Made by a program: the position numbers and the translations under genes. Under the pieces are notes generated by a model. The model saw only the letters and a list, made by a program, of their open reading frames with translations. It did no database searches and was not told where the DNA came from. DNA of 64,000 nt, from contig WVWV01000033.1 in the NCBI GenBank assembly GCA_011773845.1, positions 7,113 to 71,112 of the forward strand, given 5' to 3'. The DNA is from Lysobacterales bacterium (lineage in GTDB: Bacteria > Pseudomonadota > Gammaproteobacteria > Xanthomonadales > SZUA-36). This document shows positions 29,991-47,096 of the stretch, piece after piece (within the stretch, counting starts at the first letter, position 1; every line of letters begins with the position of its first letter).

Positions 29991-30011
29991 TGCGTGCGTA
30001 CTCCCCTCACG

Positions 30012-31178: not shown

Positions 31179-31199
31179 CGATCTTCCCACTCCCGGCGC

Positions 31200-32288: not shown

Positions 32289-32290
32289 GT

Positions 32291-33400
32291 CTACAGCCCC
32301 GTCTTGATGCGCGACCAGGCCCGGCTCCGGGTGCGCTCCTGCTTGGGCCCGAAGATGCGGCCCGCCTGCCAGCCGGTGCGTTGGCCCAGCGGTGGATAGG
32401 AGGCGGGGTCGTTGGCGATGCGAGGCTCCAGCCAGGGCAGCGAGGCCCGGTTGGCGTTGGCGTAACCAATCAGGTTGCTGATGTCCGCAATCACCCTGGG
32501 CCGCATCAGGAAATTCAGAAACAGGTGGGCGTTGCCCGGGTGCGGCGCGTCGCTGGGGATCAGCAGGCTGTCAAACCACAGCACGGTGCCCTCCACCGGC
32601 ACCGAGTAGGCGAGCTGGACCCCGGTGCCACCCTGTTGCGCCCGGCCCTGGGCCTGCGCGAAGTCGCCCGACCAGGCCATGGCGATGCAGACCTCGCCGC
32701 TGGGCAGATCATTGAGCAGCTTCGCCGAGCTGAAGTAGCGCACATATGGGCGGACCGACTTGAGCACCGCCTCGGCGGCCGCCAGGTGCTCGCCGTCCAT
32801 GCTGTTCGGATCGTGCCCCAGGTAGACCATCACCATCGGGATCACCGTGGTGGGCTCGTCCAGCAGCGTGATGCCGCAGTCCGCAAAGCGGGCGGCCACC
32901 TCCGGATCGAACAGCATCCGCGCGCTGTCCACCGGCGCCTCCGGCCAGCGGCTGCGGACCAGGTCGACGTTGTAGACGAATCCGGTCGTGCCCCACATGT
33001 AGGGGGCGCCGTAAGTGTTGCCGGGGTCGAATTCGGCCATGAAACCCAGCACCCACGGATCGAGGTTGTCCCACAAGCTCAGCCGGTCGCGGTCCAGTGG
33101 CTGGAACGCGCCCACCGCGATCAGCCGGGCCGAGTAGCGTATCGCCTGCAGCACGACGTCGTAGCCGGTGCGCCCCGTCACCAGCTTGGCCTCCGCCATA
33201 GCGGTCGAGTCGTAGGTGTCGTAATTGACGCGGATGCCGTATTCGGCCTCGAATTCGGCCAGCGTGGAGGCGCCGATGTAATCCGCCCAGTTGTAGAAGT
33301 TCAGCACCGGCTCTTCGGCATCCGGCGCCGCGAGCATCGGCAACGGCCACGCGAGCAGTGCGCCGAGCGCAGCGGTCCGCAGCCACCGCGCGGCCGGCAC
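32291..33400 (-). CDS. Periplasmic polyamine-type substrate-binding protein (PotD/PotF family), copy 1
   Basis: Signal peptide 'ALGALLAWPLPMLAA' followed by 'VLNFYNWADYIG'. Collinear with copy 2 but clearly diverged. Confidence 0.9.
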   Translation of the reverse strand: MPAARWLRTAALGALLAWPLPMLAAPDAEEPVLNFYNWADYIGASTLAEFEAEYGIRVNYDTYDSTAMAEAKLVTGRTGYDVVLQAIRYSARLIAVGAFQPLDRDRLSLWDNLDPWVLGFMAEFDPGNTYGAPYMWGTTGFVYNVDLVRSRWPEAPVDSARMLFDPEVAARFADCGITLLDEPTTVIPMVMVYLGHDPNSMDGEHLAAAEAVLKSVRPYVRYFSSAKLLNDLPSGEVCIAMAWSGDFAQAQGRAQQGGTGVQLAYSVPVEGTVLWFDSLLIPSDAPHPGNAHLFLNFLMRPRVIADISNLIGYANANRASLPWLEPRIANDPASYPPLGQRTGWQAGRIFGPKQERTRSRAWSRIKTGL

Positions 33401-33402: not shown

Positions 33403-34569
33403 TTACAGTTCCTCCAGCCCGCGCTTGTCCAGCGCGCGGGCGATGACCAGACGCTGCAGCTCGCTGGCGCCCTCCCAGATGCGGTCGACGCGGATTTCCC
33501 GCGTGAACCGCTCGGCGCAGTTCTCGCGCATGTAACCGCGGCCGCCGAAAATCTGTACCGCCCGGTCGGCGATCCGGCTAGCGGCCTCGGAGGCATACAG
33601 CTTGGCGATCGAGCAGCGGGCATGCAGCGACTTGACGTTCTCACCCCGGTCATGGGCATGCGCCGCCTCGAAGGTGATCAGGCGCGCCGCCCACAACTCC
33701 GTGACGCTGTCCGCCAGCATCGCCTGCACCAGTTGCTTGTCGATCAGCCGCTCGCCGCTGACCCGGCGCTGCTGCGCGAATTCGGTGGCTTCCTCGATCA
33801 GGCGCGTCGCCGCGCCGCAATCCCGCGCCGCGATCATCAGCCGCTCGCGACGAAACCAGCTGTGGGTGTATGCCATGCCCTCGCCCTCGGCGCCGATGCG
33901 GTTTTCCGCCGGCACCTCCACGTCCGTGAATTGCAGCTGTGGGTGGTGGTGATCGAAGGTGTGGCTGAACAGCGGGGTGCGCAGCACCTCGATGCCGGGG
34001 GATGCCCGGTCCACCAGGAACAGTGCCTCGCTGCCGGCATGCGGTCCGGAGGCGAGGCGCGCCTGCACGAACATGAAATCGGCCAGGTTGGCGCTGGTGA
34101 CATACCATTTCTCGCCGTTGATCCGGTAGCGGTCCCCGGCCACCTCGGCGGTCGTCTCGATCACCACGTCGGAGCCGGACTCCCGCTCGGTGATCGCGTA
34201 GCACTCCTTGCGGGTGCCCTGCATCAGGGGCAGGACATAGGCCTCGAGCTGCGCCTCGCGGCAGGCCTCGAACATCCATCGCTGCGGCTCGGAAAAACAC
34301 CAGCACAGGGCGTTGGTAACCCGGCCGAGCTGCTCCCACACCGCCACCTGGTCGACCGTGCGCAACTCCAGGCCGCCGTATTGGCGGGGCACGTCCATGG
34401 CGCTGAAACCCAGCTCCACGGCCATCTCTCGATGCCGCTTGCCCACCTCCGCCGGCAGCCGGCCGCCGTTCATCTCCGCCTCCACCTCGTGCGGTATGAG
34501 TTCCCGTTCCGCGAATTGCCGGGCCTTCGCCTGCCACTCGGTGGCCGTCGCGTCGAGTTGGATCTTCAT
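33403..34569 (-). CDS. Acyl-CoA dehydrogenase family protein
   Basis: 388 aa with 'CYAITERESGSD', 'NGEKWYVT' and 'IFGGRGYMRE...RIWEGASE'. The ATG at 34569 overlaps the TetR stop as ATGA. Confidence 0.9.
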   Translation of the reverse strand: MKIQLDATATEWQAKARQFAERELIPHEVEAEMNGGRLPAEVGKRHREMAVELGFSAMDVPRQYGGLELRTVDQVAVWEQLGRVTNALCWCFSEPQRWMFEACREAQLEAYVLPLMQGTRKECYAITERESGSDVVIETTAEVAGDRYRINGEKWYVTSANLADFMFVQARLASGPHAGSEALFLVDRASPGIEVLRTPLFSHTFDHHHPQLQFTDVEVPAENRIGAEGEGMAYTHSWFRRERLMIAARDCGAATRLIEEATEFAQQRRVSGERLIDKQLVQAMLADSVTELWAARLITFEAAHAHDRGENVKSLHARCSIAKLYASEAASRIADRAVQIFGGRGYMRENCAERFTREIRVDRIWEGASELQRLVIARALDKRGLEEL

Positions 34570-35225
34570 GTCCGTGCGCGCTCCTGTGCGGGGTCGCCAA
34601 AATGGTCCGGGAAGGTATGCGCCAGGTGGTCCATGGCGATGCCCAGGGCCTGCCGGCGCGTCATGTGGCGGGGCGAGACCAGCATGTCCAGCCACAGCCC
34701 CTCGGACATGGCGGCCATGCCGCGGGCCACGGACTCGGGTTTGATCCCGGGATAATCGCCCTCGGCAATGAGGTCGCCGCACAACTGGCGCAGTTGCCGG
34801 TCGTAGCCGCGATCGCGGTCCGCACAGAGTCTGCGATAGGTGGGGCGGGACTTGGACTCGCCCCAGAATGCAAACCACACCGCCAGCTTGTTGCGATCAC
34901 ACACGGAAGGGTGGAAATCCACTTCCACCAGCGCCGCCAGGCGCTCGGCGCTGCTCGGGCCGGCGCGGTCGAGCGCCCTCTCCCAGCGGGACTTGTACTC
35001 GTCCACCACGTAAGCCAGCGTTTCCAGCAACAGGCGCTCCTTGCTGTTGAAGTGGAGGTTGATGATGCCCTGGCTGAGCCCGGCCTCCGCGGCGACGGTA
35101 GCGATGGTGGTATCGGAAAGGCCCTGGCCTGCGATCGAGCGGATGGTCGCCTGGATCAGTTGCGCGCGCCGCTTCTCCCGGGGCTCGGTGCGCCGGGGCC
35201 GGGCCTTGGCAACCGCGCCACTCAT
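34566..35225 (-). CDS. TetR/AcrR-family transcriptional regulator
   Basis: HTH region 'RRAQLIQATIRSIAGQGLSDTTIATVAAEAGLSQGIINLHFNSKE'. Start set at ATG 35225 (GGAAG upstream). The longest ORF begins at TTG 35291. Confidence 0.8.
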   Translation of the reverse strand: MSGAVAKARPRRTEPREKRRAQLIQATIRSIAGQGLSDTTIATVAAEAGLSQGIINLHFNSKERLLLETLAYVVDEYKSRWERALDRAGPSSAERLAALVEVDFHPSVCDRNKLAVWFAFWGESKSRPTYRRLCADRDRGYDRQLRQLCGDLIAEGDYPGIKPESVARGMAAMSEGLWLDMLVSPRHMTRRQALGIAMDHLAHTFPDHFGDPAQERART

Positions 35226-35320
35226 GTGCTTCCGGATCCTGTCATGGTCCTCATCCGCTCTGCGGTCCCGGGGCTTCACCGGCCGGGTCAAATATTAAGC
35301 ACATCCCCCCGATTATGCAA

Positions 35321-35342
35321 TGAATGAATGATTATTCATTCA
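35321..35342. promoter_or_regulatory. Candidate TetR operator: perfect 9-bp inverted repeat TGAATGAAT-GATT-ATTCATTCA
   Basis: Read directly from the sequence. It lies in the AT-rich divergent control region between the TetR-led minus-strand array and the plus-strand operon beginning at 35416. Confidence 0.45.
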
Positions 35343-35415: not shown

Positions 35416-36747
35416 ATGCGACGTTCATTGGAGCGATCGAACCGGCACTTCAGAAAAGCAGTGCAGAAACTCCCGCTGGGGGTCGCCTCTAATTTCCGCT
35501 ATTGGGGAGACGACCGCACCATCTACATCGACAGCGGCCGTGGTGCCCGACTACGAGACCTGGACGGCAACGAATACATCGACTACCGGCTTGGTTTCGG
35601 GCCCTGCATCCTGGGTTACGCAGACCCACGCGTGGATGCCGCGGCGCGCGACGGCATCGAGGTCGGCGGCGTGTTCGCGCTGTCTACCGAGCGCGAGTAC
35701 GAGGTGGCCCGGCGCATCTCGAGCATGGTGCCGGCGGCGGAGCTGGTGCGCTTCTCCAACTCCGGCACCGAGGCGGTGATGGCCGCGCTGCGCCTCGCCC
35801 GGTCCCATACCGGCAAGGATGCCCACATCGTCGTCGAGGGCGGCTACCACGGCGTGTTCGATGCGGTATTGTGGTATGCGGAAATCGAGGACTGGGAACC
35901 GTCCCAGGGCAAACCGCCGATCGAGGCCTACTGCGAGGGCGTCCCGCGCCTGCTCAGGCGCCTGTCCCATTTTACGCCACTCAACGACGCCGACTACCTC
36001 GAAGATCTGCTCAAGAAACACCACCAGGACATCGGCGCGTTCCTGATCGAGCCCATGATGGGCAACTGCTGTTCCATCACCGCGACGCGCGAGTACGTGC
36101 TGGCGGCCCGGGAGCTGTGCCGCAAGTACGACGTCGTGATGATCGTCGACGAGGTCAAGACCGGCTTCCGGGTGGCGCGGGGCGGCGTGCAGGAGCTGAT
36201 GGGCGTCCGCGCCGACCTGTGCACCTTCGCCAAGGCCATGGGCAACGGCTACCCGATATCGGCCGTGGCCGGGCGCGAAGACATCATGCGCCAGTTCGGC
36301 GACGGCGTGGTGCACGGCGGCACCTATACCTGCCACTCGGTGGCGCTGGCGGCGGCCGAGAAGACGCTGGAGATCCTCGACGAGACGCCGGCGCTCGAGA
36401 CCATCGCCGATTACGGCCTGCGCCTGCAGGCGGGCATGAGCGAGATTCTCAACGCGCGCGGCATCCCCCATTCTTTCACCGGCCACCCCTCGATGTTCGG
36501 CCTGTTCTTCAGCGCCGCGGCACCGGACAATTACCGGGACTGGCTGGAGTCCGACTACGCGTTCTATGATGCGCTGGCCCCCGTGCTCCACGACCACGGC
36601 GTGCTGTGCGAGCCCGATTCCCGCGAGCCGTGGTTCCTGTGCGAGGCGCATGCGAGCGGTGACAATCTGCAGCGCACCCTCGGCGCGTTCGAGCGCGCCG
36701 TGGACTGCACCCGTGACCAACTCAACCTGAAGGCAGTCAATGCCTGA
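35416..36747 (+). CDS. Class-III PLP aminotransferase (glutamate-1-semialdehyde aminomutase-like subgroup)
   Basis: 443 aa with 'RFSNSGTEAVMAALRLAR', 'DEVKTGFR' and the Schiff-base lysine context 'TFAKAMGNGYP'. Confidence 0.9.
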   Translation: MRRSLERSNRHFRKAVQKLPLGVASNFRYWGDDRTIYIDSGRGARLRDLDGNEYIDYRLGFGPCILGYADPRVDAAARDGIEVGGVFALSTEREYEVARRISSMVPAAELVRFSNSGTEAVMAALRLARSHTGKDAHIVVEGGYHGVFDAVLWYAEIEDWEPSQGKPPIEAYCEGVPRLLRRLSHFTPLNDADYLEDLLKKHHQDIGAFLIEPMMGNCCSITATREYVLAARELCRKYDVVMIVDEVKTGFRVARGGVQELMGVRADLCTFAKAMGNGYPISAVAGREDIMRQFGDGVVHGGTYTCHSVALAAAEKTLEILDETPALETIADYGLRLQAGMSEILNARGIPHSFTGHPSMFGLFFSAAAPDNYRDWLESDYAFYDALAPVLHDHGVLCEPDSREPWFLCEAHASGDNLQRTLGAFERAVDCTRDQLNLKAVNA

Positions 36748-36764: not shown

Positions 36765-38384
36765 GTGGCTAAGCAATACGATGCAATCGTGATCGGCGCC
36801 GGGCACAACGGCCTCGCCAACGCGGCCTTCCTGGCCAAGGCCGGGCTGAGCGTGCTGATGGTGGAAAAGAACCCGTATATCGGCGGCGCCTCGGTCAGTC
36901 GTAACCTCTACAAGGACTGGATCTATTCCAACTGCTCGTATGTGTGCAGCCTGCTGCGCCCGGAAGTGTACCGGGCGCTGGATCTGGCCCGCTACGGCCT
37001 GCAGGTGGTCCCCTACGGCGGCAGCGTCACCCTCACCCAGGACGGGGATTATCTCGGCAGCTATATCGACCCCGACGCCTCGCGCCGCGAAATGGCTCGG
37101 CACAGCCCCCGCGACGCGGACGCAGAAGTGCGCTACTGGCGCGACATCATGCGGCAGTGCCGCTTCATCCGCCAGTTCCTGCTGCGCACCGCACCGGACC
37201 CGACCTCGTTCAAGCCGCGTGACCTGCTGGAACTGCTGCACCTCGGCCGGGAGTTCTGGAAGCTCGGCGAGAGCGTCATGTACGACACCATGCGCTTCTA
37301 CACCATGAGCATCGTCGAATTCCTCGACGAGTATTTCGAACACCCGCTGATCAAGGCCGCGCATGCCGGCAGCGGCATCATCGGCTCGGCGCTGGGGGTG
37401 ATGTCGCCCGGCACGGCCTACGTGCTGTTGCACCACGCGATGGGCGAGGTGGACGGCACAGCCGGCGCCTGGGGCTTCGCGCGGGGCGGCATGGGCGCCA
37501 TCGCCGAGGCGATGGGCGCCTGCCTGCGGGACCACGGCGGCGAGATCGTCACCGGCTCCGGCGTCGAGCGCATCCAGGTGCGCAATGGCCGCGCCACCGG
37601 CGTGGCGCTCGAAAACGGCGATGAATACACCGCCGACGTCGTGGTCTCCAACATGACCCTGCCCCGCACCTTCCTGGAATGCATGGACCCCGCCGACCTG
37701 CGGCCCGATTTCCTCACCAAAGTCCGGAATTTCAAGATTCGCGGCTCGTCGGGCAAGGTCAACATCGCCCTCGACGGACTGCCCCAGTTCACCGCCCTGC
37801 GGGAGAACCGCGAACTCATGCACACCGACATGCACCTGATCGACTCGGTGGAGCGCCTGGAGCGGGCCTATGACGACTGGAAGAACGGCATCTGGTCGCA
37901 GGACCCGTACATCGACATGCTGATCCCGACCCTGACCGATCCCACCATGGCACCGCCCGGCAAGCACTTCATGTCGGTCTTCGTCCAGTACGTTCCGCCC
38001 AAGGTCCACGGCCGTGACTGGACCGACGCGGACCGCGACGCCTTCGGCCAGACCGTGCTGAACCAGATCGAGCGCTACGCGCCGGGATTCAAGAACCTGG
38101 TGCTGCACGCCGAGGTGCGCACGCCACGCGAACTGGAGGCGGAAGTGGGCCTCACCGAGGGCAACATCTTCCAGGGCGAGCTGACCATGGACCAGTTGCT
38201 GTTCAACCGCCCCATCCCGGGCTACGCCCAATACCGTGGCCCGGTCAAGGGCCTGTACCTGTGCGGGTCGTCCAACCACCCGGGCGGCGGGGTCATGGCT
38301 GCCCCGGGCGCGAACGCGGCGCGCGAAATTCTGCGGGACCTGCGCAAGCCCAACACCGTGCCGGAGGGCTGGCTCGATGACTGA
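36765..38384 (+). CDS. CrtI/phytoene-desaturase-family NAD(P)/FAD-dependent oxidoreductase, copy 1
   Basis: GTG start with dinucleotide-binding motif 'YDAIVIGAGHNGLANAAFLAKAGLSVLMVEKNPYIGGA' and C-terminal 'GLYLCGSSNHPGGGV'. Confidence 0.85.
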   Translation: MAKQYDAIVIGAGHNGLANAAFLAKAGLSVLMVEKNPYIGGASVSRNLYKDWIYSNCSYVCSLLRPEVYRALDLARYGLQVVPYGGSVTLTQDGDYLGSYIDPDASRREMARHSPRDADAEVRYWRDIMRQCRFIRQFLLRTAPDPTSFKPRDLLELLHLGREFWKLGESVMYDTMRFYTMSIVEFLDEYFEHPLIKAAHAGSGIIGSALGVMSPGTAYVLLHHAMGEVDGTAGAWGFARGGMGAIAEAMGACLRDHGGEIVTGSGVERIQVRNGRATGVALENGDEYTADVVVSNMTLPRTFLECMDPADLRPDFLTKVRNFKIRGSSGKVNIALDGLPQFTALRENRELMHTDMHLIDSVERLERAYDDWKNGIWSQDPYIDMLIPTLTDPTMAPPGKHFMSVFVQYVPPKVHGRDWTDADRDAFGQTVLNQIERYAPGFKNLVLHAEVRTPRELEAEVGLTEGNIFQGELTMDQLLFNRPIPGYAQYRGPVKGLYLCGSSNHPGGGVMAAPGANAAREILRDLRKPNTVPEGWLDD

Positions 38385-39924
38385 CCACGACGCCCGCATC
38401 ATCGTCATCGGCGCCGGCCACAACGGCCTGGTGTGCGCCGCCTACCTGGCGCGAGCCGGCCACGAGGTGACGGTGCTGGAAGCGGCGGCCGAGCCGGGCG
38501 GTGCGGCCGTCACCCGCGAATTCGCACCCGGCTTCAGGGTTCCGGCCTGCGCACACCTGCTGTACCTGCTCGACGACGGCATCCGCAAGGAGCTGGCGCT
38601 GGACAAGCATGGCCTGCGCATGGCCCGCAGCGGGCTGGTCAGCATCGGCCTGGACCCGGACGGCGGCCACGTACGCATCGCCGGCGCCAGCGTCGGTGGT
38701 GTTGCGGATGCCGACCAGGAGGCCATGCAGGCCCATCACCGCCGCATGCGCCGTTTCGCCCACATCATCGGCCGGCTGCACAACCGTCAGCCGCCGCGAC
38801 TGGGCACGACCGATCGTCGCGACCTGGCCAGCCTGGCCCGGCTGGCACTGGACATCCGCACGCTCGGCCGCACCGAGATGCGCGAGTTCCTGCGCATCGC
38901 CGGCATCAACATTTACGACGTGCTCCAGGAGCGCTTCGAGAACCCGGTGCTGAAAGGGGCGCTCAGCCTGGACGCGGTGCTGGGCACCTTCCTGGGGCCA
39001 CGCTCCAACAACAGCGTGTTCTGCGCCCTGCACCGACTGAGCGGCGGCGGCGATTACGCCCTGCCCGCCGGCGGCATGGGCGCCGTCACCGCTGCCCTGG
39101 CCAGCGCCGCGCGCGAAGCCGGCGCGGAGATTCGCACCGGAAGCCCGGTGGCGCGGATCCTGGTCGATCACGACCGGGTCAGCGGCGTGGAGCTCGACGA
39201 CGGCGAATGGCTGCCAGCCGCGAAGGTGGTGTCCAGCGCCGACCCCAGGGCCACCTTGCATGGCCTGCTCGGCGCGCGCCACCTGGAGGCGGGTTTCGCG
39301 CACCGCGTGGGCAACATCCGCATGCGCGGCTGCGCGGCCAAGGTGCACCTGGCGCTGGACGGCATGCCGGAGTTCACCGGCCTGGACGCCGCCGGGGCCG
39401 GCGAACGCCTGTTGATCGCACCCAGCCTCGAGTACGTCGAGCGCGCATTCAACCACGCCAAGTACGGCGAGCACTCGGCCGCGCCGGTGGCGGAGATGAC
39501 GCTTCCGAGCCTGCACGACGACAGCCTGGCGCCGGCCGGACAGCACGTGCTGTCCGCGGTGGTGCAATGGGCGCCGCGGAATCTCAAGCAGGGCTGGGCA
39601 GACGCCCGCGCTGCCTTCCTGGATACCGTGATCGACACCATGGCGCGCTACGCGCCGGGCATACGGGAGCAGATCCTGCACGCGGAGCTGCTCACCCCGG
39701 AGGACATCGAACGCCAGTTCCGCATCACGGGTGGCCACTGGCATCACGGCGAATTGTCCCTGGACCAGTTCCTGATGATGCGCCCGGTACCGGGTGCGGG
39801 GCAGTACGCGACGCCGGTCCCCGGGCTGTGGTTGTGCGGCGCCGGCAGCCACCCGGGTGGCGGCGTCATGGGCAGCGCGGGGCGCAACGCGGCCCGCGCC
39901 ATAGTCGGCAGCAATCGGGAGTAG
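38377..39924 (+). CDS. CrtI/phytoene-desaturase-family NAD(P)/FAD-dependent oxidoreductase, copy 2
   Basis: ATG at 38377 overlaps the copy-1 end by 8 nt. Motifs 'ARIIVIGAGHNGLVCAAYLARAGHEVTVLEAAAEPGGAA' and C-terminal 'GLWLCGAGSHPGGGV'. Confidence 0.85.
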   Translation: MTDHDARIIVIGAGHNGLVCAAYLARAGHEVTVLEAAAEPGGAAVTREFAPGFRVPACAHLLYLLDDGIRKELALDKHGLRMARSGLVSIGLDPDGGHVRIAGASVGGVADADQEAMQAHHRRMRRFAHIIGRLHNRQPPRLGTTDRRDLASLARLALDIRTLGRTEMREFLRIAGINIYDVLQERFENPVLKGALSLDAVLGTFLGPRSNNSVFCALHRLSGGGDYALPAGGMGAVTAALASAAREAGAEIRTGSPVARILVDHDRVSGVELDDGEWLPAAKVVSSADPRATLHGLLGARHLEAGFAHRVGNIRMRGCAAKVHLALDGMPEFTGLDAAGAGERLLIAPSLEYVERAFNHAKYGEHSAAPVAEMTLPSLHDDSLAPAGQHVLSAVVQWAPRNLKQGWADARAAFLDTVIDTMARYAPGIREQILHAELLTPEDIERQFRITGGHWHHGELSLDQFLMMRPVPGAGQYATPVPGLWLCGAGSHPGGGVMGSAGRNAARAIVGSNRE

Positions 39925-39928
39925 CGAC

Positions 39929-41134
39929 ATGCGCACCGTGAGATTCGACCGCCGCGACCATTACCGGCACAAGGTCTTCCCCAGCCCGTTCCATGCCCGC
40001 CAGCAGGCGCACAACGAGCTCAAGGTGTGGTCGCGCTGGTTCGACTACCTGTCCGTGCCGGCCTACACCTGCGCGCAGATGGAGTATTTCGCCGGGCGCA
40101 ATGCCTGCGGCGTGTTCGACCTGACGCCGATGACCAAGCACCGGGTGAGCGGGCCCGACGCCCTGCCCTACCTGAACCGGCTGCTGACGCGGGATGTGGG
40201 CAAGATCCGGCCGGGGCGCGTCGGCTACAGCGTGTGGTGCACGGACGAGGGCCAGGTCATCGACGACGGCACCGTGTTCCACCTGCGCGAGGGGGAGTAT
40301 CGCATCTGCTCACAGGAGCACCAGATCGACTGGTTCCTGATCTCGGCCCTCGGCTTCGATGTCGAGGTCGTCGAGGAGACGCACGACGTGGCGGCGCTGG
40401 CCCTGCAGGGCCCGACCTCCTGCGCCACCCTCAAGCGCATGGGGCTGGACGGCATCGAGAACCTGACCCCGTTCGGCTTGGCCCATTTCGACTTCCAGGG
40501 CACCCAGCTGATGGTCTCGCGCACCGGTTACACCGGCGACCTGGGTTATGAGCTGTGGATCGATCCCGGCCACGCCGAACCGTTGTGGAACCGCCTGTTC
40601 GAGGCCGGGCGGCTGCTCGGCATCAAGCCGATGGGCTCCGAGGCGCTCGACCTGCTGCGCATCGAGGCGGGCTTCATTCTGGCGGGCGTCGATTTCATGC
40701 CGGCCCAGCAAACCGTGCGGCCCACCCACACGCGCACGCCGTTCGAGCTCGGCCTGGGGTGGCTGGTGGACTTCGACAAGCCCGTTTTCAACGGCCGGCG
40801 CGCCCTGCTCGCGGCCCGGGAACGGGGGCCGCGCTACCGGCTCGTCAGGCTGGACATCGAGGGCAACAAGCCCGCCCACCACTCCTACGTGTACTCGACC
40901 CGCAACAAGAACATCGGCTGGGTCACCTCCGCCATGTGGTCGCCCTCGGCCAAGGCCAACATCGCGCTGGCCACGGTAGCAGCGCCGCATGGCGAGCCCG
41001 GCGAGGAAATGCGGATCGAGATTTACTATCAGCGTGAACTGAAGTGGAGCCGCATGATGGCCAGCGCCCGGGTGGTGGAAGGCGCGTTCTACGACCCGCC
41101 ACGCCGGCGCGAAACGCCGCCCCTGGACCACTGA
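39929..41134 (+). CDS. Aminomethyltransferase (GcvT) family folate-binding protein, stand-alone
   Basis: 401 aa with 'VFDLTPMTKHRVSGPDA', 'VSRTGYTGDLGYELW' and 'EALDLLRIEAG'. GGGAG RBS lies upstream. Confidence 0.85.
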   Translation: MRTVRFDRRDHYRHKVFPSPFHARQQAHNELKVWSRWFDYLSVPAYTCAQMEYFAGRNACGVFDLTPMTKHRVSGPDALPYLNRLLTRDVGKIRPGRVGYSVWCTDEGQVIDDGTVFHLREGEYRICSQEHQIDWFLISALGFDVEVVEETHDVAALALQGPTSCATLKRMGLDGIENLTPFGLAHFDFQGTQLMVSRTGYTGDLGYELWIDPGHAEPLWNRLFEAGRLLGIKPMGSEALDLLRIEAGFILAGVDFMPAQQTVRPTHTRTPFELGLGWLVDFDKPVFNGRRALLAARERGPRYRLVRLDIEGNKPAHHSYVYSTRNKNIGWVTSAMWSPSAKANIALATVAAPHGEPGEEMRIEIYYQRELKWSRMMASARVVEGAFYDPPRRRETPPLDH

Positions 41135-41160: not shown

Positions 41161-43245
41161 ATGGCCCATCGACTGGACCCCCTGCTGAAACCGGCTTCCA
41201 TCGCGGTGCTGGGCGCCAGCCAGCGCCCGGGCGTGGGGCAACAGGTCCTACGCAACCTCTTGCAGGGCGGCTTCGGGGGGCCACTGTATGCCGTCAACCC
41301 GGCTTACCGGGAAGTCTGCGGTGTACCCTGCTTTCCGTCGCTGGACGACCTACCGGAGCCCGTGGAGCACGTGGTGTTCGCCGTCAGCGACCCGCGCGTG
41401 GAGGCGGCGCTGGAACAGGTCATCGCGCACGGCGCCCGCGCTGCAACACTCATGTCGCAACTGGTGCTGGCCGACGATCCCGCACCGACCCTGCTCGAGC
41501 GCGTGCGCTCGCGCATCCTCGAGGCCGGCCTGCTGGTGTGCGGCGGCAACGCCCTGGGTTTCTACAACTGCCGGGACGGCGTGTGGGCCTGCGGCTTCGA
41601 CACGCGGGACAACCACCCCCGCGGCGGCCATGTCACGCTGATCAGCCAGTCCGGATCCGGCATGGCTGGCATCGTCGATTGCGAAGAGCGGATCGACTTC
41701 AACCTGGCGGTCTCCACCGGCCTGGAGCTGAGCGTCGGCCTGCACGATTACATGGATTTCGCCATCGAAGCCCACGCGCCGCGCGCGATCGGCCTGTTCA
41801 TGGAGACCGTGCGCGACCCGGCAGGCATGTGCGCGGTGCTGGACAAGGCGCAGCGGCGGAACGTGCCCGTGGTGGCGCTCAAGGTGGGCCGCACCGCACT
41901 GGCGGCCCGGCTGGCCTTGTCGCACTCCGGCGCCATTGCCGGCAGCGACGCCGCCTACCAGGCCCTGTTCGACCGCTACGGGGTGCAGCGCGTGCACGAC
42001 ATGGATGAGCTGGCGAGTGCGTTAATCATGTTCGCGCAACCGCACGAGGTGGCGCCGGGCGCCCTGGTCGCCATACACGACTCCGGCGGCGAGCGGCAGC
42101 TGCTGATCGACCTGGCCGATGCGATGGAGGTGCCCCTCACGGAGCTCGCGCCCGCCACCGCGCGCGCCCTCACCGAGCGGCTCGACCCGGGGCTGCCGCC
42201 GGTCAACCCGCTGGACGCCTGGGGCGCCGGCGGCCCGGACGCGGACGCCATCATGGAGGATTGCCTGGCAGCGCTGATGAGCGACCCGGGGGCGGCGCTG
42301 GGCGCGGTCATTCACGACCGCTCGCCGTTCGGGCGCATCTATCCAGCCTATATCGACTACCTGCGCAAGGCCCACGCCGCCACCGGCAAGCCGGTATTCC
42401 TGGTCGCAAACCGGCAGGGCACCGGCACCGACCCCGTCGTGGTCGAGGTGACGCGCGAGGGCTTTCCGGTGCTCGACGGCCTGCGCCCGTTCCTGGCGGG
42501 CGTCCGCTGCCTGCTGTCGGTGCGTGACTTCCGCGCCCGCACCCGCCCCGAGCTGCCCACTGTCGACCCAGAGGTGGCCGCGCGCTGGCGGGAGCGGCTG
42601 GCGGGCGGCGGCGCGCTGGACGAGGTTCGCTCGCTCGCCATGCTGGGCGACTTCGGGCTGCCCGTGAACCCCGCCCTGCCCGTCACCAGCCGCGAGGAAC
42701 TGCTGGCCGCCGCCGCGCGGCTCGGCTATCCGCTGGTGCTCAAGACCGCCAAGGCCGGCCTGCACCACAAGACGGAAGCTGGTGGGGTGCGGCTGGACCT
42801 GCCCGACGAGGCCGCCTTGCTGGACGCCTACGCCTCGTTGTGCGAGCGCGTGGGGCCGCAGGCGCTGGTGGCGCGCATGGTGCAGTCCCCTGGCCTGGAG
42901 TTGCTGCTCGGCATGGTCCGCGACGAACAGTTCGGGCCCCTGGTCACCCTGGGCTTCGGCGGCATCGACGTGGAGCAGATGCGGGATTTCGCCTGCGCAA
43001 TGCCGCCGTTCGACGCCGCCACCGCCCACCGGCTGCTGGCAACGCTGCACCGGAGCCGCATGCTGGCGGGCGGGCGGCGCATCGGCACCCCGGCAATTGA
43101 GGCATACTGCGAGATGGCCTCGCGCTTCTCGGTCATGGTGGACGCCCTGGCGGGGGTGCTGGAGGAGATCGACATCAACCCGGTGATCGTGCATGCCACG
43201 GGATGCATCGGCGTGGACGCGCTGGTGGTCGCGCGGCGATCATGA
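41161..43245 (+). CDS. ADP-forming acyl-CoA synthetase (acetate--CoA ligase family: CoA-binding + succinyl-CoA-synthetase-like + ATP-grasp domains)
   Basis: 694 aa with 'LLKPASIAVLGAS', 'TLISQSGS' and the C-terminal ATP-grasp motif 'GYPLVLK...GGV'. Start at ATG 41161, downstream of the gcvT-like stop. Confidence 0.85.
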   Translation: MAHRLDPLLKPASIAVLGASQRPGVGQQVLRNLLQGGFGGPLYAVNPAYREVCGVPCFPSLDDLPEPVEHVVFAVSDPRVEAALEQVIAHGARAATLMSQLVLADDPAPTLLERVRSRILEAGLLVCGGNALGFYNCRDGVWACGFDTRDNHPRGGHVTLISQSGSGMAGIVDCEERIDFNLAVSTGLELSVGLHDYMDFAIEAHAPRAIGLFMETVRDPAGMCAVLDKAQRRNVPVVALKVGRTALAARLALSHSGAIAGSDAAYQALFDRYGVQRVHDMDELASALIMFAQPHEVAPGALVAIHDSGGERQLLIDLADAMEVPLTELAPATARALTERLDPGLPPVNPLDAWGAGGPDADAIMEDCLAALMSDPGAALGAVIHDRSPFGRIYPAYIDYLRKAHAATGKPVFLVANRQGTGTDPVVVEVTREGFPVLDGLRPFLAGVRCLLSVRDFRARTRPELPTVDPEVAARWRERLAGGGALDEVRSLAMLGDFGLPVNPALPVTSREELLAAAARLGYPLVLKTAKAGLHHKTEAGGVRLDLPDEAALLDAYASLCERVGPQALVARMVQSPGLELLLGMVRDEQFGPLVTLGFGGIDVEQMRDFACAMPPFDAATAHRLLATLHRSRMLAGGRRIGTPAIEAYCEMASRFSVMVDALAGVLEEIDINPVIVHATGCIGVDALVVARRS

Positions 43246-43274
43246 TCCAATGACGACACATCGAGGTGAGAGAC

Positions 43275-44807
43275 ATGAGCCTGGCAAATCTGGAATCCTA
43301 CCAACGCACCGACTGGCAGCAGGCGGCCGACCGGGCCGGGGCCAACATCGAGACCCGCCTGTTCATCGACGGTGAATTCGTCGATGCCGCGGGCGGCGGG
43401 CGTTTCGACACCCTCAACCCCGCCACCGGCGAGGTGATTGCCTCGATGTCGGCAGGCACCGCGGCGGACATCGACCGGGCGGTGGCCGCGGCGCGCCGGG
43501 CGTTCCGTTCCGGCGTGTGGTCGCGCATGGCGCCGCGCCGGCGGATGGAGGTCCTGTACCGTTTCGCCGACCTGGTGGAGGCGCGCGCCGAGCAGCTGGC
43601 GGTGCTGGAAACGCTGGACATGGGCAAGCCCATCGCGGACGTGATCGGCGAAGACCTGCCGGCCGTGTGCCAGACGCTGCGCTTCATGGCCGAGTGCATC
43701 GACAAGGTCGACGGGGCGGTGACCAACACCGCGGACGACGTGGTGCACATGGTGTTGCGGGAGCCGCTGGGGGTGGTGGGCGCCATCTCGCCCTGGAACT
43801 ACCCGCTGCTGATGGCCACCTGGAAGATCGCGCCGGCCCTGGCGGCCGGCAACACGGTGGTGCTCAAGCCCGCCGAGCAATCGCCCCTCAGTTGCCTGCG
43901 GCTGGCGGAACTGTTCCTGGAGGCCGGCGGCCCCCCGGGGGTGTTCAACGTGGTCAATGGCATGGGCGAGGAGGCCGGCAAGGCGCTGGCCCTGCACCCG
44001 AACGTGGCCAAGATCAGCTTCACCGGCTCCACCGAGGTGGGCAAGCTGATCCTGCAGTACGCCGGCCAGTCCAACATGAAGCACGTCGGCCTGGAGTGCG
44101 GCGGCAAATCGCCGCAGCTGTTCATGGCTGACCTGCCGGACCTGGGCAGCGCGGTGGCGGCCGCCTACAACGGCGTGTTCGCCAACATGGGCGAGGTGTG
44201 CAGCGCCGGCTCGCGACTGCTGGTGGAGCGCCCCATCTACATGGACTTCATCGAGCGCTTCATCGCCGAGGGTCGTGACGCCTACGTGCCCGGCGACCCG
44301 CTGGACCCCGGCACCAACATGGGTCCGCTGGTCACCCGGAGCGACCAGCAGCGCGTGCTGGCAATGATCCAGGCCGGCCGGGACGAGGGGGCGACGCTGC
44401 ATTTCGGCGGCGACGTGCCGGCGGGACTGGAGCGAGGCGCCTTCGTCAACCCCACGCTGTTCGCGGACGTGAACAACGACATGACCATCGCGCGCCAGGA
44501 GATTTTCGGCCCGGTGGCCAGCGTGATTCCCTTCGACGGCGTGGACGAGGTGCTCGAAATCGCCAACGACACCATCTACGGCCTGGCGGCGGGCGTGTGG
44601 ACCCGCGACATCGACAAGGGCTTCCACCTCCTCAAGCGCATCGAGGCGGGGATCGTGTGGGTCAACTGCTACGAGGGGGGCGACATGACGCAGCCGTTTG
44701 GCGGCTACAAGCAGTCGGGCAATGCGCGTGACAAGTGCATCGACAGCTACAAGAGCTACACGCAGTCGAAATCGGCCTGGATCCAGCTCGCGGGTGGCCC
44801 GGGCTGA
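43275..44807 (+). CDS. NAD-dependent aldehyde dehydrogenase (PuuC-like branch), second copy
   Basis: Motifs 'SPWNYP', 'FTGSTEVG', 'LECGGKSP', 'EIFGPV' and 'PFGGYKQSGNARDK'. ATG 43275 is preceded by GAGGTGAGAG. Confidence 0.9.
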   Translation: MSLANLESYQRTDWQQAADRAGANIETRLFIDGEFVDAAGGGRFDTLNPATGEVIASMSAGTAADIDRAVAAARRAFRSGVWSRMAPRRRMEVLYRFADLVEARAEQLAVLETLDMGKPIADVIGEDLPAVCQTLRFMAECIDKVDGAVTNTADDVVHMVLREPLGVVGAISPWNYPLLMATWKIAPALAAGNTVVLKPAEQSPLSCLRLAELFLEAGGPPGVFNVVNGMGEEAGKALALHPNVAKISFTGSTEVGKLILQYAGQSNMKHVGLECGGKSPQLFMADLPDLGSAVAAAYNGVFANMGEVCSAGSRLLVERPIYMDFIERFIAEGRDAYVPGDPLDPGTNMGPLVTRSDQQRVLAMIQAGRDEGATLHFGGDVPAGLERGAFVNPTLFADVNNDMTIARQEIFGPVASVIPFDGVDEVLEIANDTIYGLAAGVWTRDIDKGFHLLKRIEAGIVWVNCYEGGDMTQPFGGYKQSGNARDKCIDSYKSYTQSKSAWIQLAGGPG

Positions 44808-45632: not shown

Positions 45633-45649
45633 CACCTGGAGAGAAGCCC

Positions 45650-47061: not shown

Positions 47062-47096
47062 CAAAAAAAGGCCCGGCATTGCCGGGCCTTTGTTGA
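47062..47096. terminator. Bidirectional rho-independent terminator between convergent genes
   Basis: Perfect 8-bp GC stem GGCCCGGC-ATT-GCCGGGCC (47070-47088), flanked by A7 upstream and TTTGTT downstream. Confidence 0.7.

What the first reader, a model, noticed from the sequence alone, without database searches (positions are those of the whole stretch)
36765..41134. Tandem CrtI-like FAD oxidoreductases followed by a stand-alone GcvT protein: a possible split dimethylglycine/sarcosine-dehydrogenase-like N-demethylase
Seen in sequence: two paralogous amine-oxidase/phytoene-desaturase-fold genes, both with GxGxxG 'IGAGHNGL' and C-terminal 'CG..HPGGGV'. They overlap by 8 nt, and a 401-aa GcvT-family gene lacking any FAD domain follows 5 nt later.

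Established knowledge: DMGDH, sarcosine dehydrogenase and heterotetrameric sarcosine oxidase combine an FAD amine-oxidising module with a GcvT-type folate-binding module, so the iminium or formaldehyde unit is captured as 5,10-methylene-THF. DmdA is also a stand-alone GcvT-family demethylase.

Inference: these three genes may form a multi-subunit THF-dependent oxidative N-demethylase (or S-demethylase) built from a different FAD fold than the known enzymes.
Basis: inference. Interest (0 to 1): 0.68.

Follow-up and report, generated by a model that had tools for sequence, protein, structure and literature searches.

The report
PYROXD2-like flavoproteins with folate partner
Two paralogous flavoproteins related to the orphan human enzyme PYROXD2 always sit next to a stand-alone folate-binding protein inside a methylated-amine breakdown island. 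They most likely remove N-methyl groups and pass the carbon to folate, which gives PYROXD2 a testable function.

Summary
Gene A (36765-38384) and gene B (38377-39924) are 36% identical FAD proteins that overlap by 8 nt. A 401-aa GcvT-family gene, C (39929-41134), follows 4 nt later.

A and B are not carotenoid enzymes. They fall far below the CrtI and CrtO family cut-offs and belong to the PYROXD2 clade. C is not GcvT, DmdA or YgfZ. Its closest solved relative is the folate domain of TMAO demethylase, which captures formaldehyde, and it keeps that domain's folate-contact residues.

The order A-B-C is kept in 66 of 66 (A) and 76 of 76 (B) related gammaproteobacterial loci, and on alphaproteobacterial plasmids, while the neighbouring genes vary.

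The trio lies in an island with three kinds of first-step quaternary-amine demethylase:
- MttB/corrinoid MtgBCD-like
- Rieske GbcA-like
- BHMT-like in a relative

The island also has PotF-type uptake genes and a transaminase. A distant family member is fused to a glutathione-dependent formaldehyde-activating domain.

The best reading is a split, tetrahydrofolate-coupled oxidative N-demethylase for tertiary and secondary methylamines. The substrate, any physical complex and the separate roles of A and B are unresolved. I found no published description. This is a new variant of a known kind, and of high interest.

The parts
36765..38384 (+). Gene A: PYROXD2-clade FAD oxidoreductase (539 aa) and the most conserved member of the trio
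   Evidence: Pfam PF01593, and CrtI/CrtO families below cut-off. Orthologues are 69-86% identical in Gammaproteobacteria and 61-64% in Alphaproteobacteria. UniRef names its orthologues 'Pyridine nucleotide-disulfide oxidoreductase domain-containing protein 2'. The AF2 model has the CrtD/amine-oxidase fold.
38377..39924 (+). Gene B: paralogous PYROXD2-clade FAD oxidoreductase (515 aa), overlapping A by 8 nt
   Evidence: 36% identical to A. It keeps the FAD motifs and 57 invariant residues shared with A, but has its own invariant substitutions: S58A, Y59H, H224R, N333H, I468W, F469H and S502A in A numbering. It is present in 76 of 76 loci.
39929..41134 (+). Gene C: stand-alone T-protein-like tetrahydrofolate-binding protein (401 aa)
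   Evidence: GCV_T plus GCV_T_C. The best solved relative is the C-terminal THF domain of TMAO demethylase 9q59, E 3e-52. Tdm's THF contacts R480, F582, F672 and K782 (PMC13619132) align with R88, F182, W278 and R392, all invariant among 22 orthologues.
34566..35291 (-). Divergent TetR regulator with a BetI-type C-terminal domain
   Evidence: TetR_N plus TetR_C_6. A homologue was detected in 56 of the 80 loci, always upstream of the trio on the opposite strand. It is also divergent next to the trio on three alphaproteobacterial plasmids.
35321..35342 (.). Perfect palindrome TGAATGAAT-N4-ATTCATTCA in the TetR/operon intergenic region; probable operator
   Evidence: It is found with at most 3 mismatches at the same relative position in 52 of 80 related loci. 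By my calculation about 0.4 matches are expected by chance in all loci together.
35416..36747 (+). Class-III (omega) aminotransferase, first gene of the operon
   Evidence: Aminotran_3. The best NCBIfam hit is GntE-type transaminase, 441 bits against a cut-off of 525. It is present in 44 of 80 loci. A 63% orthologue heads the Fuscovulum operon.
41161..43245 (+). ADP-forming acyl-CoA synthetase
   Evidence: CoA_binding_2, Succ_CoA_lig and ATP-grasp_5. The start codon was refined. It is present in 52 of 80 loci.
43266..44807 (+). Aldehyde dehydrogenase, PuuC/BADH-like
   Evidence: Aldedh 553 bits. PuuC scores 557 and BADH 509, both below their cut-offs. It is present in 42 of 80 loci.
44811..45632 (+). 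Enoyl-CoA hydratase
   Evidence: ECH_1. It is present in 26 of 80 loci.
45629..47023 (+). Glutamine-synthetase-like gamma-glutamyl-amine synthetase, last gene of the operon
   Evidence: Gln-synt_C. The best NCBIfam hit is gamma-glutamylputrescine synthetase, 211 bits, below cut-off. It is present in 37 of 80 loci.
47067..47091 (.). GC-rich palindromic hairpin between the convergent GS-like gene and the gene at 47116-48213; marks the end of the operon
   Evidence: Terminator-like site with 11 pairs followed by a T-run.
33403..34569 (-). Acyl-CoA dehydrogenase
   Evidence: Acyl-CoA_dh N, M and C domains. The best NCBIfam hits are acryloyl-CoA reductase (182 bits) and crotonobetainyl-CoA dehydrogenase (163 bits), both below cut-off. 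It is present in 31 of 80 loci.
28273..33400 (-). Polyamine-type ABC importer: two PotF-like binding proteins (32291-33400, 31200-32288), PotA-like ATPase (30012-31190) and two permeases (29073-29990, 28273-29076)
   Evidence: PotF scores 370 and 341 bits, below the cut-off of 636. Orthologues follow the trio in Fuscovulum.
27038..28243 (-). Rieske oxygenase alpha subunit, GbcA-like
   Evidence: GbcA 297.5 bits against a cut-off of 670. Homologues lie upstream in 27 of 80 loci, directly beside A in Marinihelvus fidelis, and in the alphaproteobacterial clusters.
18417..26940 (-). MtgBCD-type cobalamin-dependent quaternary-amine methyltransferase set: two MttB-family genes (18417-19997, 19954-21486), RamA-like activase (22349-24481), methyl-THF:corrinoid methyltransferase (24363-25334), DUF1638 (25608-26291) and MtgC-like corrinoid protein (26230-26940). 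Some start codons are uncertain.
   Evidence: The same gene set demethylates glycine betaine in aerobic marine bacteria (PMC12478193).
15951..18299 (.). MTHFR (15951-16823, -) and a DAO-family amine oxidase (17007-18299, +) at the left edge of the island
   Evidence: The DAO gene's best hit is pipecolate oxidase AmaA at 195 bits, below cut-off.

Best explanation
A, B and C form a split, tetrahydrofolate-coupled oxidative N-demethylase for tertiary and secondary methylamines.

A and B are cytoplasmic FAD enzymes of the PYROXD2 clade, with the CrtI/amine-oxidase fold. Each is proposed to oxidise an N-CH3 group to the iminium ion. C is a T-protein-like folate protein that is not fused to either. 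It takes the one-carbon unit as 5,10-methylene-THF instead of letting formaldehyde escape.

Quaternary amines have no nitrogen lone pair and cannot be oxidised this way. Other enzymes encoded alongside the trio must therefore remove the first methyl group: MttB/corrinoid MtgBCD-like, Rieske GbcA-like, or BHMT-like in one relative.

My preferred sub-model is that A and B act in sequence, dimethyl to monomethyl and then monomethyl to primary amine, as DMGDH and SARDH do. The primary amine would then go to the co-transcribed omega-transaminase, the aldehyde dehydrogenase and the CoA-ester enzymes. A and B could equally form one heteromeric enzyme.

The substrate is taken up by a PotF-type transporter and is unknown. 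Candidates are methylated diamines or polyamines, omega-(di)methylamino acids, N-epsilon-methyl-lysines, and dimethylglycine/sarcosine.

Shown: gene structure, family placement, synteny, context and conserved folate residues. Inferred: the chemistry, the hand-off to C, the order of steps, the electron acceptor and the substrate.
For: 1. Linkage. B is present in 76 of 76 and A in 66 of 66 related loci with enough upstream DNA, in the same order and spacing. The flanking genes vary, and some loci hold only TetR-A-B-C.
2. Second class. The same A-B-C order with a divergent TetR is found on plasmids of Rhizobium, Parasedimentitalea and Fuscovulum. A, B and C each pair with their own orthologue: A 61-64%, B 40-45%, C 46-49%. 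Four further replicons (two Shinella zoogloeoides, Shinella sp. PSBB067, Ensifer adhaerens) show an A-type match (62-64%) plus a second match in the record; I did not inspect them.
3. Tight coupling. The A/B overlap is 8 nt and the B-C gap is 4 nt, within an 8-gene operon. The TetR operator is conserved in 52 of 80 loci.
4. Context. The island holds two MttB genes, MtgC, a methyl-THF methyltransferase, RamA, DUF1638, MTHFR, a GbcA-like Rieske gene and PotF-type uptake. L078 has a Rieske gene and a BHMT-like gene directly upstream of A, and L057 has the corrinoid set upstream of TetR-A-B-C. PMC12478193 reports that genes for the later demethylation steps often sit near mtgBCD in marine bacteria.
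5. Protein C. It is closest to the THF domain of TMAO demethylase, which converts channelled formaldehyde to methylene-THF. The four named folate contacts and the DDG Asp (D112) are invariant.
6. Independent pairings of the FAD family with one-carbon capture modules:
   - a single A-like protein next to GcvT in Shinella sumterensis;
   - an uninterrupted 816-aa fusion of a GFA (glutathione-dependent formaldehyde-activating) domain to a PYROXD2-like domain;
   - GFA and MTHFR genes beside a homologue;
   - Fae two genes from another homologue;
   - Rieske genes adjacent in 4 of 7 sister-clade contexts.
7. Human genetics. Variants at PYROXD2 explain about 50% of the variance in plasma N6-methyllysine and associate with N6,N6-dimethyllysine, N-methylpipecolate, trimethylamine and dimethylamine. 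Lower expression goes with higher methylamine levels (PMC8109053; PMC3169529).
8. Fold. After CrtD and CrtI, the fold neighbours are tertiary- and primary-amine oxidases: NicA2, 6-hydroxynicotine oxidase, putrescine oxidase and MAO.
Against: - No member of the PYROXD2 clade has a demonstrated activity, and all characterised CrtI-family enzymes act on C-C bonds.
- Many more distant single homologues (31-38% identical) have no GcvT neighbour and sit beside acyl-CoA enzymes.
- The 80 loci were picked through close orthologues of C, so part of the synteny reflects shared ancestry.
- No electron acceptor such as ETF is encoded nearby.
- The AF2 model has low confidence at 462-488 and 502-510, near the conserved C-terminal motif.
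- Complex formation between A, B and C is untested.
Confidence: 0.6

Rival explanations
1. A and B are not two enzymes. They are the two subunits of one heteromeric dehydrogenase: A is catalytic and B is a diverged partner that holds a second flavin or shapes the site. C docks on this complex, as the alpha and beta subunits of heterotetrameric sarcosine oxidase combine two nucleotide-binding proteins with a folate domain. The chemistry is the same as in the best explanation, but only one demethylation step is catalysed.
For: The overlapping start and stop codons suggest translational coupling. A and B always occur together in this clade. A is much more conserved than B, 61-86% against 40-69%. 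B replaces a block of residues conserved in A, in the single Shinella protein and in the recalled human sequence.
Against: B keeps all FAD-binding motifs, and its own substitutions are invariant, which suggests a working site of its own. Single A-like proteins occur with GcvT, or alone with Rieske genes, so one flavoprotein can suffice. After the first-step enzyme, a quaternary amine still has two methyl groups to lose.
Confidence: 0.25
2. A and B perform CrtI/RetSat-type C-C desaturation or saturation, or a deaminating, polyamine-oxidase-like C-N cleavage at a non-methyl carbon. C works independently, either as a DmdA-like methyltransferase or as a scavenger of formaldehyde released by the Rieske monooxygenase.
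For: All characterised relatives catalyse C-C chemistry. The closest solved structures are CrtD and CrtI. Distant homologues lie next to an acyl-CoA dehydrogenase and CoA ligases. The operon also encodes acyl-CoA synthetase, acyl-CoA dehydrogenase and enoyl-CoA hydratase. The Rieske enzyme is a real source of formaldehyde.
Against: C is linked to A and B in every locus, whereas the Rieske gene is found in only 27 of 80 loci and the CoA genes in 26-52 of 80. Minimal loci contain only TetR-A-B-C. The GFA fusion and the GcvT pairing tie the flavoprotein itself to a one-carbon product. C scores 153 against 410 for DmdA. The human PYROXD2 associations are with N-methyl amines.
Confidence: 0.12
3. 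[quoted passage not shown]
For: Automatic names such as 'phytoene dehydrogenase-like protein' and 'aminomethyltransferase'. CrtO is the top NCBIfam hit.
Against: All curated cut-offs are missed by wide margins: CrtO 264.7 and 218.2 against 1000, crtI_fam 113.9 and 138.3 against 238.1, GcvT 236.8 against 300 and 168.8 against 235.85. No crtB, crtE, crtY, gcvH or gcvP appeared among the roughly 40 window genes screened. The synteny and the amine-catabolic context are conserved.
Confidence: 0.02

Closest known systems
Dimethylglycine dehydrogenase / sarcosine dehydrogenase and bacterial dimethylglycine oxidase (DMGDH, SARDH, DMGO)
   Same: FAD-dependent oxidation of an N-methyl group, coupled to a GcvT-type folate module that yields 5,10-methylene-THF. 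Two paralogous enzymes handle the dimethyl and monomethyl steps. C aligns with their folate domains (1pj5 and 4p9s, E about 1e-24).
   Different: Their FAD domain has the DAO fold and is fused to the folate domain in one chain. Here the flavoproteins have the CrtI/amine-oxidase fold (PYROXD2 clade), and the folate protein is a separate polypeptide shared by the two paralogues.
Heterotetrameric sarcosine oxidase (SoxABDG) / N-methylglutamate dehydrogenase
   Same: A multi-subunit arrangement in which the catalytic flavoprotein and the folate-binding GcvT-like domain lie on different polypeptides.
   Different: No soxB, soxD or soxG homologues are present in the operon. C scores 153 against 1164 for the soxA family and covers only its C-terminal part. 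The flavoprotein fold is different.
TMAO demethylase Tdm (PDB 9q59; PMC13619132)
   Same: It is C's closest solved relative (E 3e-52). The Tdm folate domain captures channelled formaldehyde as methylene-THF, and its four named folate contacts are conserved in C.
   Different: Tdm's catalytic part is a fused Zn-containing N-terminal domain, not a flavoprotein. C lacks that domain: the NCBIfam match covers only positions 414-760 of 763.
Human PYROXD2
   Same: A's orthologues carry this name in UniRef. The genetics link it to N-methyl-lysines, N-methylpipecolate, trimethylamine and dimethylamine.
   Different: The human protein is an orphan with no known reaction. It is mitochondrial, single-copy, and has no known dedicated folate partner.
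LSD1/KDM1 histone demethylases (my knowledge, not tested here)
   Same: These are flavin amine oxidases of the same Pfam family (PF01593). They demethylate mono- and dimethyl-lysine through an iminium ion but cannot attack trimethyl-lysine, the same logic that requires a separate first-step enzyme here.
   Different: They act on protein substrates, carry SWIRM and tower domains, release formaldehyde, and have no GcvT partner. A and B are much closer to CrtI and PYROXD2.
MtgBCD glycine-betaine demethylation system of aerobic marine bacteria (PMC12478193)
   Same: The left part of the island has the same parts: MttB-family methyltransferase, MtgC, methyl-THF methyltransferase, RamA and DUF1638.
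   Different: That system removes only the first methyl group. The published pathways continue with DMGDH or sarcosine-oxidase-type enzymes, whereas here the adjacent candidates are A, B and C.

Membership tests
CrtI / phytoene desaturase family (TIGR02734) and CrtO ketolase (NF045689) | Score at or above the curated family cut-off | tested here: not met
   crtI_fam scores 113.9 (A) and 138.3 (B) against 238.1. CrtO scores 264.7 and 218.2 against 1000.
CrtI / phytoene desaturase family | Carotenoid pathway genes (crtB, crtE, crtY) in the neighbourhood | tested here: not met
   None appeared among the roughly 40 window genes screened, nor among the flanking genes sampled in related loci.
CrtI / flavin amine oxidase structural superfamily | Overall fold: Rossmann FAD domain plus substrate domain | tested here: met
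   The AF2 model of A has pLDDT 78.7. Foldseek gives 4rep (CrtD) at E 9.5e-22 with TM 0.73/0.80, then 4dgk, NicA2, putrescine oxidase and MAO.
PYROXD2 clade | Full-length similarity to animal PYROXD2 clearly above that to CrtI | tested here: inconclusive
   UniRef names A's orthologues PYROXD2. No database copy of the human protein was available.
Glycine cleavage T protein (GcvT) | Curated equivalog score, and partnership with gcvH and gcvP | tested here: not met
   PRK00389 scores 236.8 against 300. TIGR00528 scores 168.8 against 235.85. No gcvH or gcvP was found among the window genes screened.
GcvT superfamily (folate-binding fold) | GCV_T and GCV_T_C domains, and conserved folate-contact residues | tested here: met
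   The domains score 198.8 and 49.8 bits. R88, F182, W278, R392 and D112/D113 are invariant in 22 orthologues and align with Tdm R480, F582, F672 and K782.
DmdA (DMSP demethylase) | Curated equivalog score | tested here: not met
   NF009133 scores 153.1 against 410. PDB 3tfh gives E 1.3e-29, weaker than Tdm and the T proteins.
YgfZ | Any significant match to a YgfZ model | tested here: not met
   C's eight NCBIfam hits at E up to 1e-3 include no YgfZ family.
TMAO demethylase Tdm | N-terminal Zn catalytic domain fused to the folate domain | tested here: not met
   The match covers only model positions 414-760 of 763, at 255.5 bits against 1100. C is 401 aa and has no extra domain.
DMGDH / SARDH / DMGO | DAO-fold FAD domain fused N-terminally to the GcvT domain | tested here: not met
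   C has no FAD domain. No A-C or B-C fusion was found in 80 loci; the apparent merged ORFs were frameshifts.
Heterotetrameric sarcosine oxidase | soxB, soxD and soxG subunits, and a soxA-family score | tested here: not met
   soxA scores 153.1 against 1164 for C. soxB scores only 24.5 bits for A, through the Rossmann motif. No soxD or soxG was found.
THF-coupled oxidative N-demethylase (functional class) | Methylene-THF formed from an N-methyl amine in an FAD-dependent reaction | not testable with these tools
   This needs enzyme assays. Only genomic and sequence evidence is available.

The most novel reading that the evidence does not exclude
The PYROXD2 clade as a whole may be an unrecognised class of N-methyl-amine dehydrogenases. 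These enzymes would hand the oxidised methyl carbon to interchangeable capture modules: a stand-alone T-protein with THF here, a fused or adjacent GFA domain with glutathione elsewhere. They would act downstream of Rieske, corrinoid or BHMT-type quaternary-amine demethylases. Human PYROXD2 would then be the missing mitochondrial demethylase of free N-epsilon-methyl-lysines and related methylamines. The bacterial A-B-C operon would be a non-orthologous replacement for DMGDH/SARDH-type chemistry on a polyamine-like methylated substrate, possibly N-methylated polyamines.
Probability: 0.45. Interest if true: 0.85.

Novelty: new variant of a known kind. Interest (0 to 1): 0.75.

Why it matters
Oxidative N-demethylation coupled to folate is known only from DAO-fold enzymes (DMGDH, SARDH, sarcosine oxidases) and from Tdm. 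If confirmed, this module has several consequences.
- It adds a second, unrelated flavoprotein scaffold with a detachable folate subunit.
- It fills the 'later demethylation steps' next to the newly recognised aerobic MtgBCD and Rieske systems in abundant marine and sediment Gammaproteobacteria. Homologues number in the thousands in metagenomes.
- It gives the first concrete, assayable biochemical hypothesis for human PYROXD2. That protein is an orphan mitochondrial flavoprotein tied to a severe infantile disorder. It also underlies some of the strongest known metabolite QTLs (N6-methyllysine, trimethylamine and dimethylamine).
- Cultured hosts are available for direct tests: Marinihelvus fidelis, Rhizobium sp. 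SL42, Parasedimentitalea marina and Fuscovulum ytuae. Four more replicons that I did not inspect (two Shinella zoogloeoides, Shinella sp. PSBB067, Ensifer adhaerens) show a 62-64% A-type match plus a second match.

Tried and rejected
- **Carotenoid or glycine-cleavage reading.** Rejected on curated cut-offs and context.
- **DmdA or YgfZ orthology of C.** Rejected.
- **Literature.** Nine full-text searches were run. Eight looked for a described activity or a bacterial operon (PYROXD2 with demethylase or operon; phytoene dehydrogenase with aminomethyltransferase; MttB with GcvT; dimethylglycine and sarcosine with phytoene; and others) and found neither. One retrieved the Tdm structure paper.
- **A-C or B-C fusion proteins among the 80 loci.** None were found. 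The merged or missing ORFs in L061, L067, L070 and L076 are frameshifts in long-read MAGs.
- **Long hits in the representative search.** P0279 has no extra Pfam domain. Only P0305 was informative, carrying a GFA domain.
- **Contexts of distant single homologues on plasmids.** Paracoccus aminophilus, Aminobacter, Sphingobium, Agrobacterium, Roseovarius and Halococcus show no consistent GcvT link, so the link is specific to certain clades.
- **Substrate inference from neighbours.** PotF-like binding proteins, a GntE-like transaminase, a PuuC/BADH-like ALDH, a PuuA-like GS and CaiA/AcrC-like acyl-CoA dehydrogenase hits all score below cut-off and point in different directions (polyamine, butyrobetaine, beta-alanine or lysine-type). 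I could not settle the substrate.
- **Promoter scan.** No sigma-70-like sites were found in the operon region.
- **Not possible with these tools.** Multimer structure prediction and whole-genome phylogenetic profiling could not be run.

Full report
**Observation**

The three genes exist as described. Gene A is 36765-38384 (539 aa). Gene B starts at the ATG at 38377, giving an 8-nt overlap (ATGACTGA), and ends at 39924 (515 aa). Gene C is 39929-41134 (401 aa), after a 4-nt gap.

A and B are full-length paralogues, 36% identical with E 3e-92. Both carry the IVIGAGHNGL dinucleotide-binding motif and the C-terminal CG...HPGGGV motif. Both hit Pfam Amino_oxidase. C has GCV_T and GCV_T_C domains and no flavin domain. 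Third-position GC of 0.88-0.92 marks all three as real genes in this 68% GC genome.

**What the proteins are not**

A and B have the beta-carotene ketolase CrtO as their best NCBIfam hit, but score 264.7 and 218.2 bits against a cut-off of 1000. They also miss the general crtI family cut-off, at 113.9 and 138.3 against 238.1. The nearest solved structure by sequence is CrtI, at only E 1.3e-17. No carotenoid genes were found nearby.

C falls below both GcvT cut-offs (236.8 against 300; 168.8 against 235.85) and below the DmdA cut-off (153 against 410). It has no YgfZ hit.

**What the proteins are**

A has thousands of close homologues, 80-88% identical. Most are in marine and sediment MAGs labelled Lysobacterales or Xanthomonadales, and in the isolates Elongatibacter sediminis and Marinihelvus fidelis. 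UniRef names these 'Pyridine nucleotide-disulfide oxidoreductase domain-containing protein 2', that is PYROXD2. An exhaustive phmmer search finds 2052 50%-identity clusters at E up to 1e-30. It aligns over its full length at 37% identity (348 bits) to A and at 35% (251 bits) to B.

An AlphaFold2 model of A (pLDDT 78.7) matches the carotenoid desaturases CrtD and CrtI best. The next matches are flavin amine oxidases: nicotine oxidoreductase NicA2, 6-hydroxynicotine oxidase, putrescine oxidase and MAO.

C's best solved relative is the C-terminal folate domain of TMAO demethylase (9q59, E 3e-52), ahead of the true T proteins and DmdA. A 2026 cryo-EM study showed that this domain receives formaldehyde through a tunnel and makes methylene-THF. 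It named R480, F582, F672 and K782 as folate contacts (PMC13619132). In the alignment these correspond to R88, F182, W278 and R392 of C. All four are invariant in 22 orthologues, as is the DDG motif at D112/D113. By my recollection of the E. coli T protein, D112 matches the catalytic Asp97.

**Co-occurrence**

A genome-collection scan with an alignment of C orthologues found 352 relatives, and I examined the best 80 loci (63-79% identical).
- Every locus with at least 1.6 kb upstream has B (76 of 76).
- Every locus with at least 3.3 kb upstream has A (66 of 66), in the same order and spacing.
- Four apparent exceptions are frameshifted long-read assemblies.

The flanks vary:

| Neighbouring gene | Loci out of 80 |
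|---|---|
| TetR | 56 |
| Acyl-CoA synthetase | 52 |
| Transaminase | 44 |
| ALDH | 42 |
| GS-like | 37 |
| Acyl-CoA dehydrogenase | 31 |
| Rieske oxygenase | 27 |
| Enoyl-CoA hydratase | 26 |

Some loci contain only TetR-A-B-C among unrelated genes.

A tblastn search of plasmids found seven alphaproteobacterial replicons with an A-type match (62-64%) and a second match in the record. I inspected three of them. Rhizobium sp. SL42, Parasedimentitalea marina and Fuscovulum ytuae carry A-B-C in the same order with a divergent TetR. Each protein pairs with its own orthologue: A 61-64%, B 40-45%, C 46-49%. The A/B duplication and the trio therefore predate that split, or moved as a unit. The other four replicons (two Shinella zoogloeoides, Shinella sp. 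PSBB067, Ensifer adhaerens) were not inspected.

In Fuscovulum the operon reads transaminase (63% orthologue)-A-B-C-Rieske-Rieske-PotF-type ABC transporter.

The palindrome TGAATGAAT-N4-ATTCATTCA at 35321-35342, between the TetR gene and the operon, recurs at the same position in 52 of 80 loci. By my calculation about 0.4 matches would be expected by chance.

**Genomic context in the window**

The trio lies inside a tight 8-gene operon: transaminase, A, B, C, ADP-forming acyl-CoA synthetase, ALDH, enoyl-CoA hydratase and GS-like gamma-glutamyl-amine synthetase. Intergenic distances range from -8 to 26 nt. A palindromic hairpin at 47067-47091 closes the operon.

On the other strand, reading leftwards from the operon, lie:
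- the TetR gene and an acyl-CoA dehydrogenase;
- two PotF-like binding proteins with a PotA/B/C-type importer;
- a GbcA-like Rieske oxygenase (297.5 bits against a cut-off of 670);
- an MtgC-like corrinoid protein, DUF1638, a methyl-THF:corrinoid methyltransferase (365 bits against a cut-off of 259) and a RamA-like activase;
- two MttB-family methyltransferases;
- a DAO-family oxidase and MTHFR.

The corrinoid set is the same kit recently shown to demethylate glycine betaine in aerobic marine bacteria. That paper notes that genes for the later demethylation steps are often next to mtgBCD (PMC12478193). Related loci place other first-step enzymes beside the trio:
- a Rieske gene and a homocysteine S-methyltransferase (BHMT-like) in L078;
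- the corrinoid set in L057;
- a Rieske gene directly divergent from A in Marinihelvus fidelis.

**Evidence from the wider family**

A sister clade about 40% identical to A usually occurs as a single gene.
- In Shinella sumterensis it sits directly upstream of a GcvT gene, within an ECH, acyl-CoA synthetase, HADH and BKACE cluster.
- In Methyloraptor, Acidiphilium, Inquilinus and Ancylobacter it is adjacent to a Rieske oxygenase. In Methyloraptor, Inquilinus and Ancylobacter that operon also has a polyamine-type ABC importer; Acidiphilium has a peptide-type (SBP_bac_5) importer instead.
- In a gammaproteobacterial MAG it lies beside a GFA-domain protein and MTHFR.
- In Ancylobacter an Fae gene is two genes away.

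One representative, P0305 (816 aa), is an uninterrupted fusion of an N-terminal glutathione-dependent formaldehyde-activating (GFA) domain (59.7 bits against a cut-off of 24.3) to a PYROXD2-like domain. Its contig has eukaryote-like neighbours.

More distant single homologues (31-38% identical) show no such link and often sit beside acyl-CoA enzymes. The connection to one-carbon capture is therefore specific to certain clades.

**Human genetics**

The PYROXD2 locus explains about 50% of the variance in plasma N6-methyllysine. It associates with N6,N6-dimethyllysine, N2-acetyl derivatives, N-methylpipecolate and N6,N6,N6-trimethyllysine (PMC8109053). It also associates with urinary trimethylamine and plasma dimethylamine, and lower expression goes with higher levels (PMC3169529). 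None of my searches found a paper that assigns an enzymatic reaction to PYROXD2.

**Mechanism proposed**

Flavin amine oxidation needs a nitrogen lone pair. Quaternary amines must therefore first lose one methyl group, through a Rieske monooxygenase, a corrinoid methyltransferase or BHMT. This is the same limit that stops LSD1 acting on trimethyl-lysine (my knowledge). The resulting tertiary and secondary amines are the natural substrates for A and B. C, tightly co-encoded with them, would take the iminium or formaldehyde carbon as methylene-THF, and MTHFR links methyl-THF and methylene-THF. The demethylated primary amine would pass to the omega-transaminase, the ALDH and the CoA-ester enzymes.

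Two findings favour two sequential enzymes.
- A and B share 57 invariant residues, including all the FAD motifs.
- B has its own strictly conserved replacements at positions conserved in A, in the single Shinella protein and in the recalled human sequence. In A numbering these are S58A, Y59H, H224R, N333H, I468W, F469H and S502A.

Two other findings favour a heteromer: the translational coupling, and the higher conservation of A compared with B. I cannot decide between the two models.

The substrate is unknown. The PotF-like uptake proteins and the PuuA/PuuC-like enzymes point to methylated di- or polyamines. The acyl-CoA synthetase, dehydrogenase and hydratase point to omega-(methyl)amino acids of the butyrobetaine type. 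The human data point to N-epsilon-methyl-lysines. The MtgBCD/GbcA neighbourhood points to dimethylglycine and sarcosine.

**Verdict**

It remains a genomic inference without biochemistry. It is best classed as a new variant of a known kind: THF-coupled oxidative N-demethylation on a new flavoprotein scaffold with a detachable folate subunit. Interest is high because it gives the orphan human enzyme PYROXD2 a testable function.

Noticed in passing
window 18417-26940 (- strand): A complete MtgBCD-type cobalamin-dependent methyltransferase kit lies in an apparently aerobic gammaproteobacterium. It has two MttB paralogues, an MtgC-like corrinoid protein, DUF1638, a methyl-THF:corrinoid methyltransferase and a RamA-like activase. 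MTHFR lies at 15951-16823. The substrates of the two MttB paralogues are unknown.
   Followed up: partly
window 27038-28243 (-): A GbcA-like Rieske oxygenase alpha subunit scores 297.5 bits against a cut-off of 670, so it is probably specific for a different quaternary or methylated amine. No reductase partner is encoded next to it.
   Followed up: partly
window 35321-35342: A perfect 9-nt inverted repeat with a 4-nt spacer sits in an AT-rich stretch between the TetR gene and the operon. It is conserved at the same position in 52 of 80 related loci and is a likely operator, useful for finding the inducer.
   Followed up: yes
L093:1437-3887 (protein P0305): An 816-aa uninterrupted ORF fuses a glutathione-dependent formaldehyde-activating (GFA) domain to a PYROXD2-like flavoprotein. 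Its contig has eukaryote-like neighbours (VMP1, RTC, CDP-alcohol phosphatidyltransferase).
   Followed up: partly
L087:3032-9752 (Shinella sumterensis plasmid): The operon ECH, ADP-forming acyl-CoA synthetase, 3-hydroxyacyl-CoA dehydrogenase, single PYROXD2-like protein and GcvT is followed by a class II aldolase and a BKACE. This carnitine/butyrobetaine-like context has its own flavoprotein-GcvT pair.
   Followed up: partly
window 17007-18299 (+): A DAO-family FAD oxidase lies convergent with the MttB genes. Its best hits are pipecolate oxidase AmaA (195 bits) and a putative aminophosphonate oxidoreductase (172 bits), both below cut-off. It could be a PuuB-like or sarcosine/pipecolate-type oxidase belonging to the same island.
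   Followed up: no
window 47116-48213 (-): A 365-aa protein has an IPTL-CTERM sorting signal and no other recognised domain. It lies immediately after the operon's terminator hairpin.
   Followed up: no
window 14862-15944 (-) and L081:6236-8910: A fatty-acid-desaturase-family (MocD-like) gene lies next to MTHFR in the window. The Rhizobium SL42 plasmid has a desaturase-family gene, a MocE ferredoxin gene and an FAD reductase gene (rhizopine-type) a few kb from its A-B-C cluster. This may be coincidence.
   Followed up: no
L002, L009: Contigs binned as Rhodothermales and Nitrosopumilus carry the cluster at 75-77% identity (protein C) to the gammaproteobacterial version. They are probably mis-binned contigs and not evidence of cross-phylum transfer.
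   Followed up: no
L061, L067, L070, L076: Genes A and/or B appear broken into several frames in these long-read ('MFD') MAGs. The pattern fits assembly indels better than pseudogenes.
   Followed up: partly
window 50257-52736 (-): A fused FakA-like (Dak2) plus DegV protein is followed by a PlsY-type glycerol-3-phosphate acyltransferase. This is a fatty-acid kinase and phospholipid synthesis pair unrelated to the amine island.
   Followed up: no
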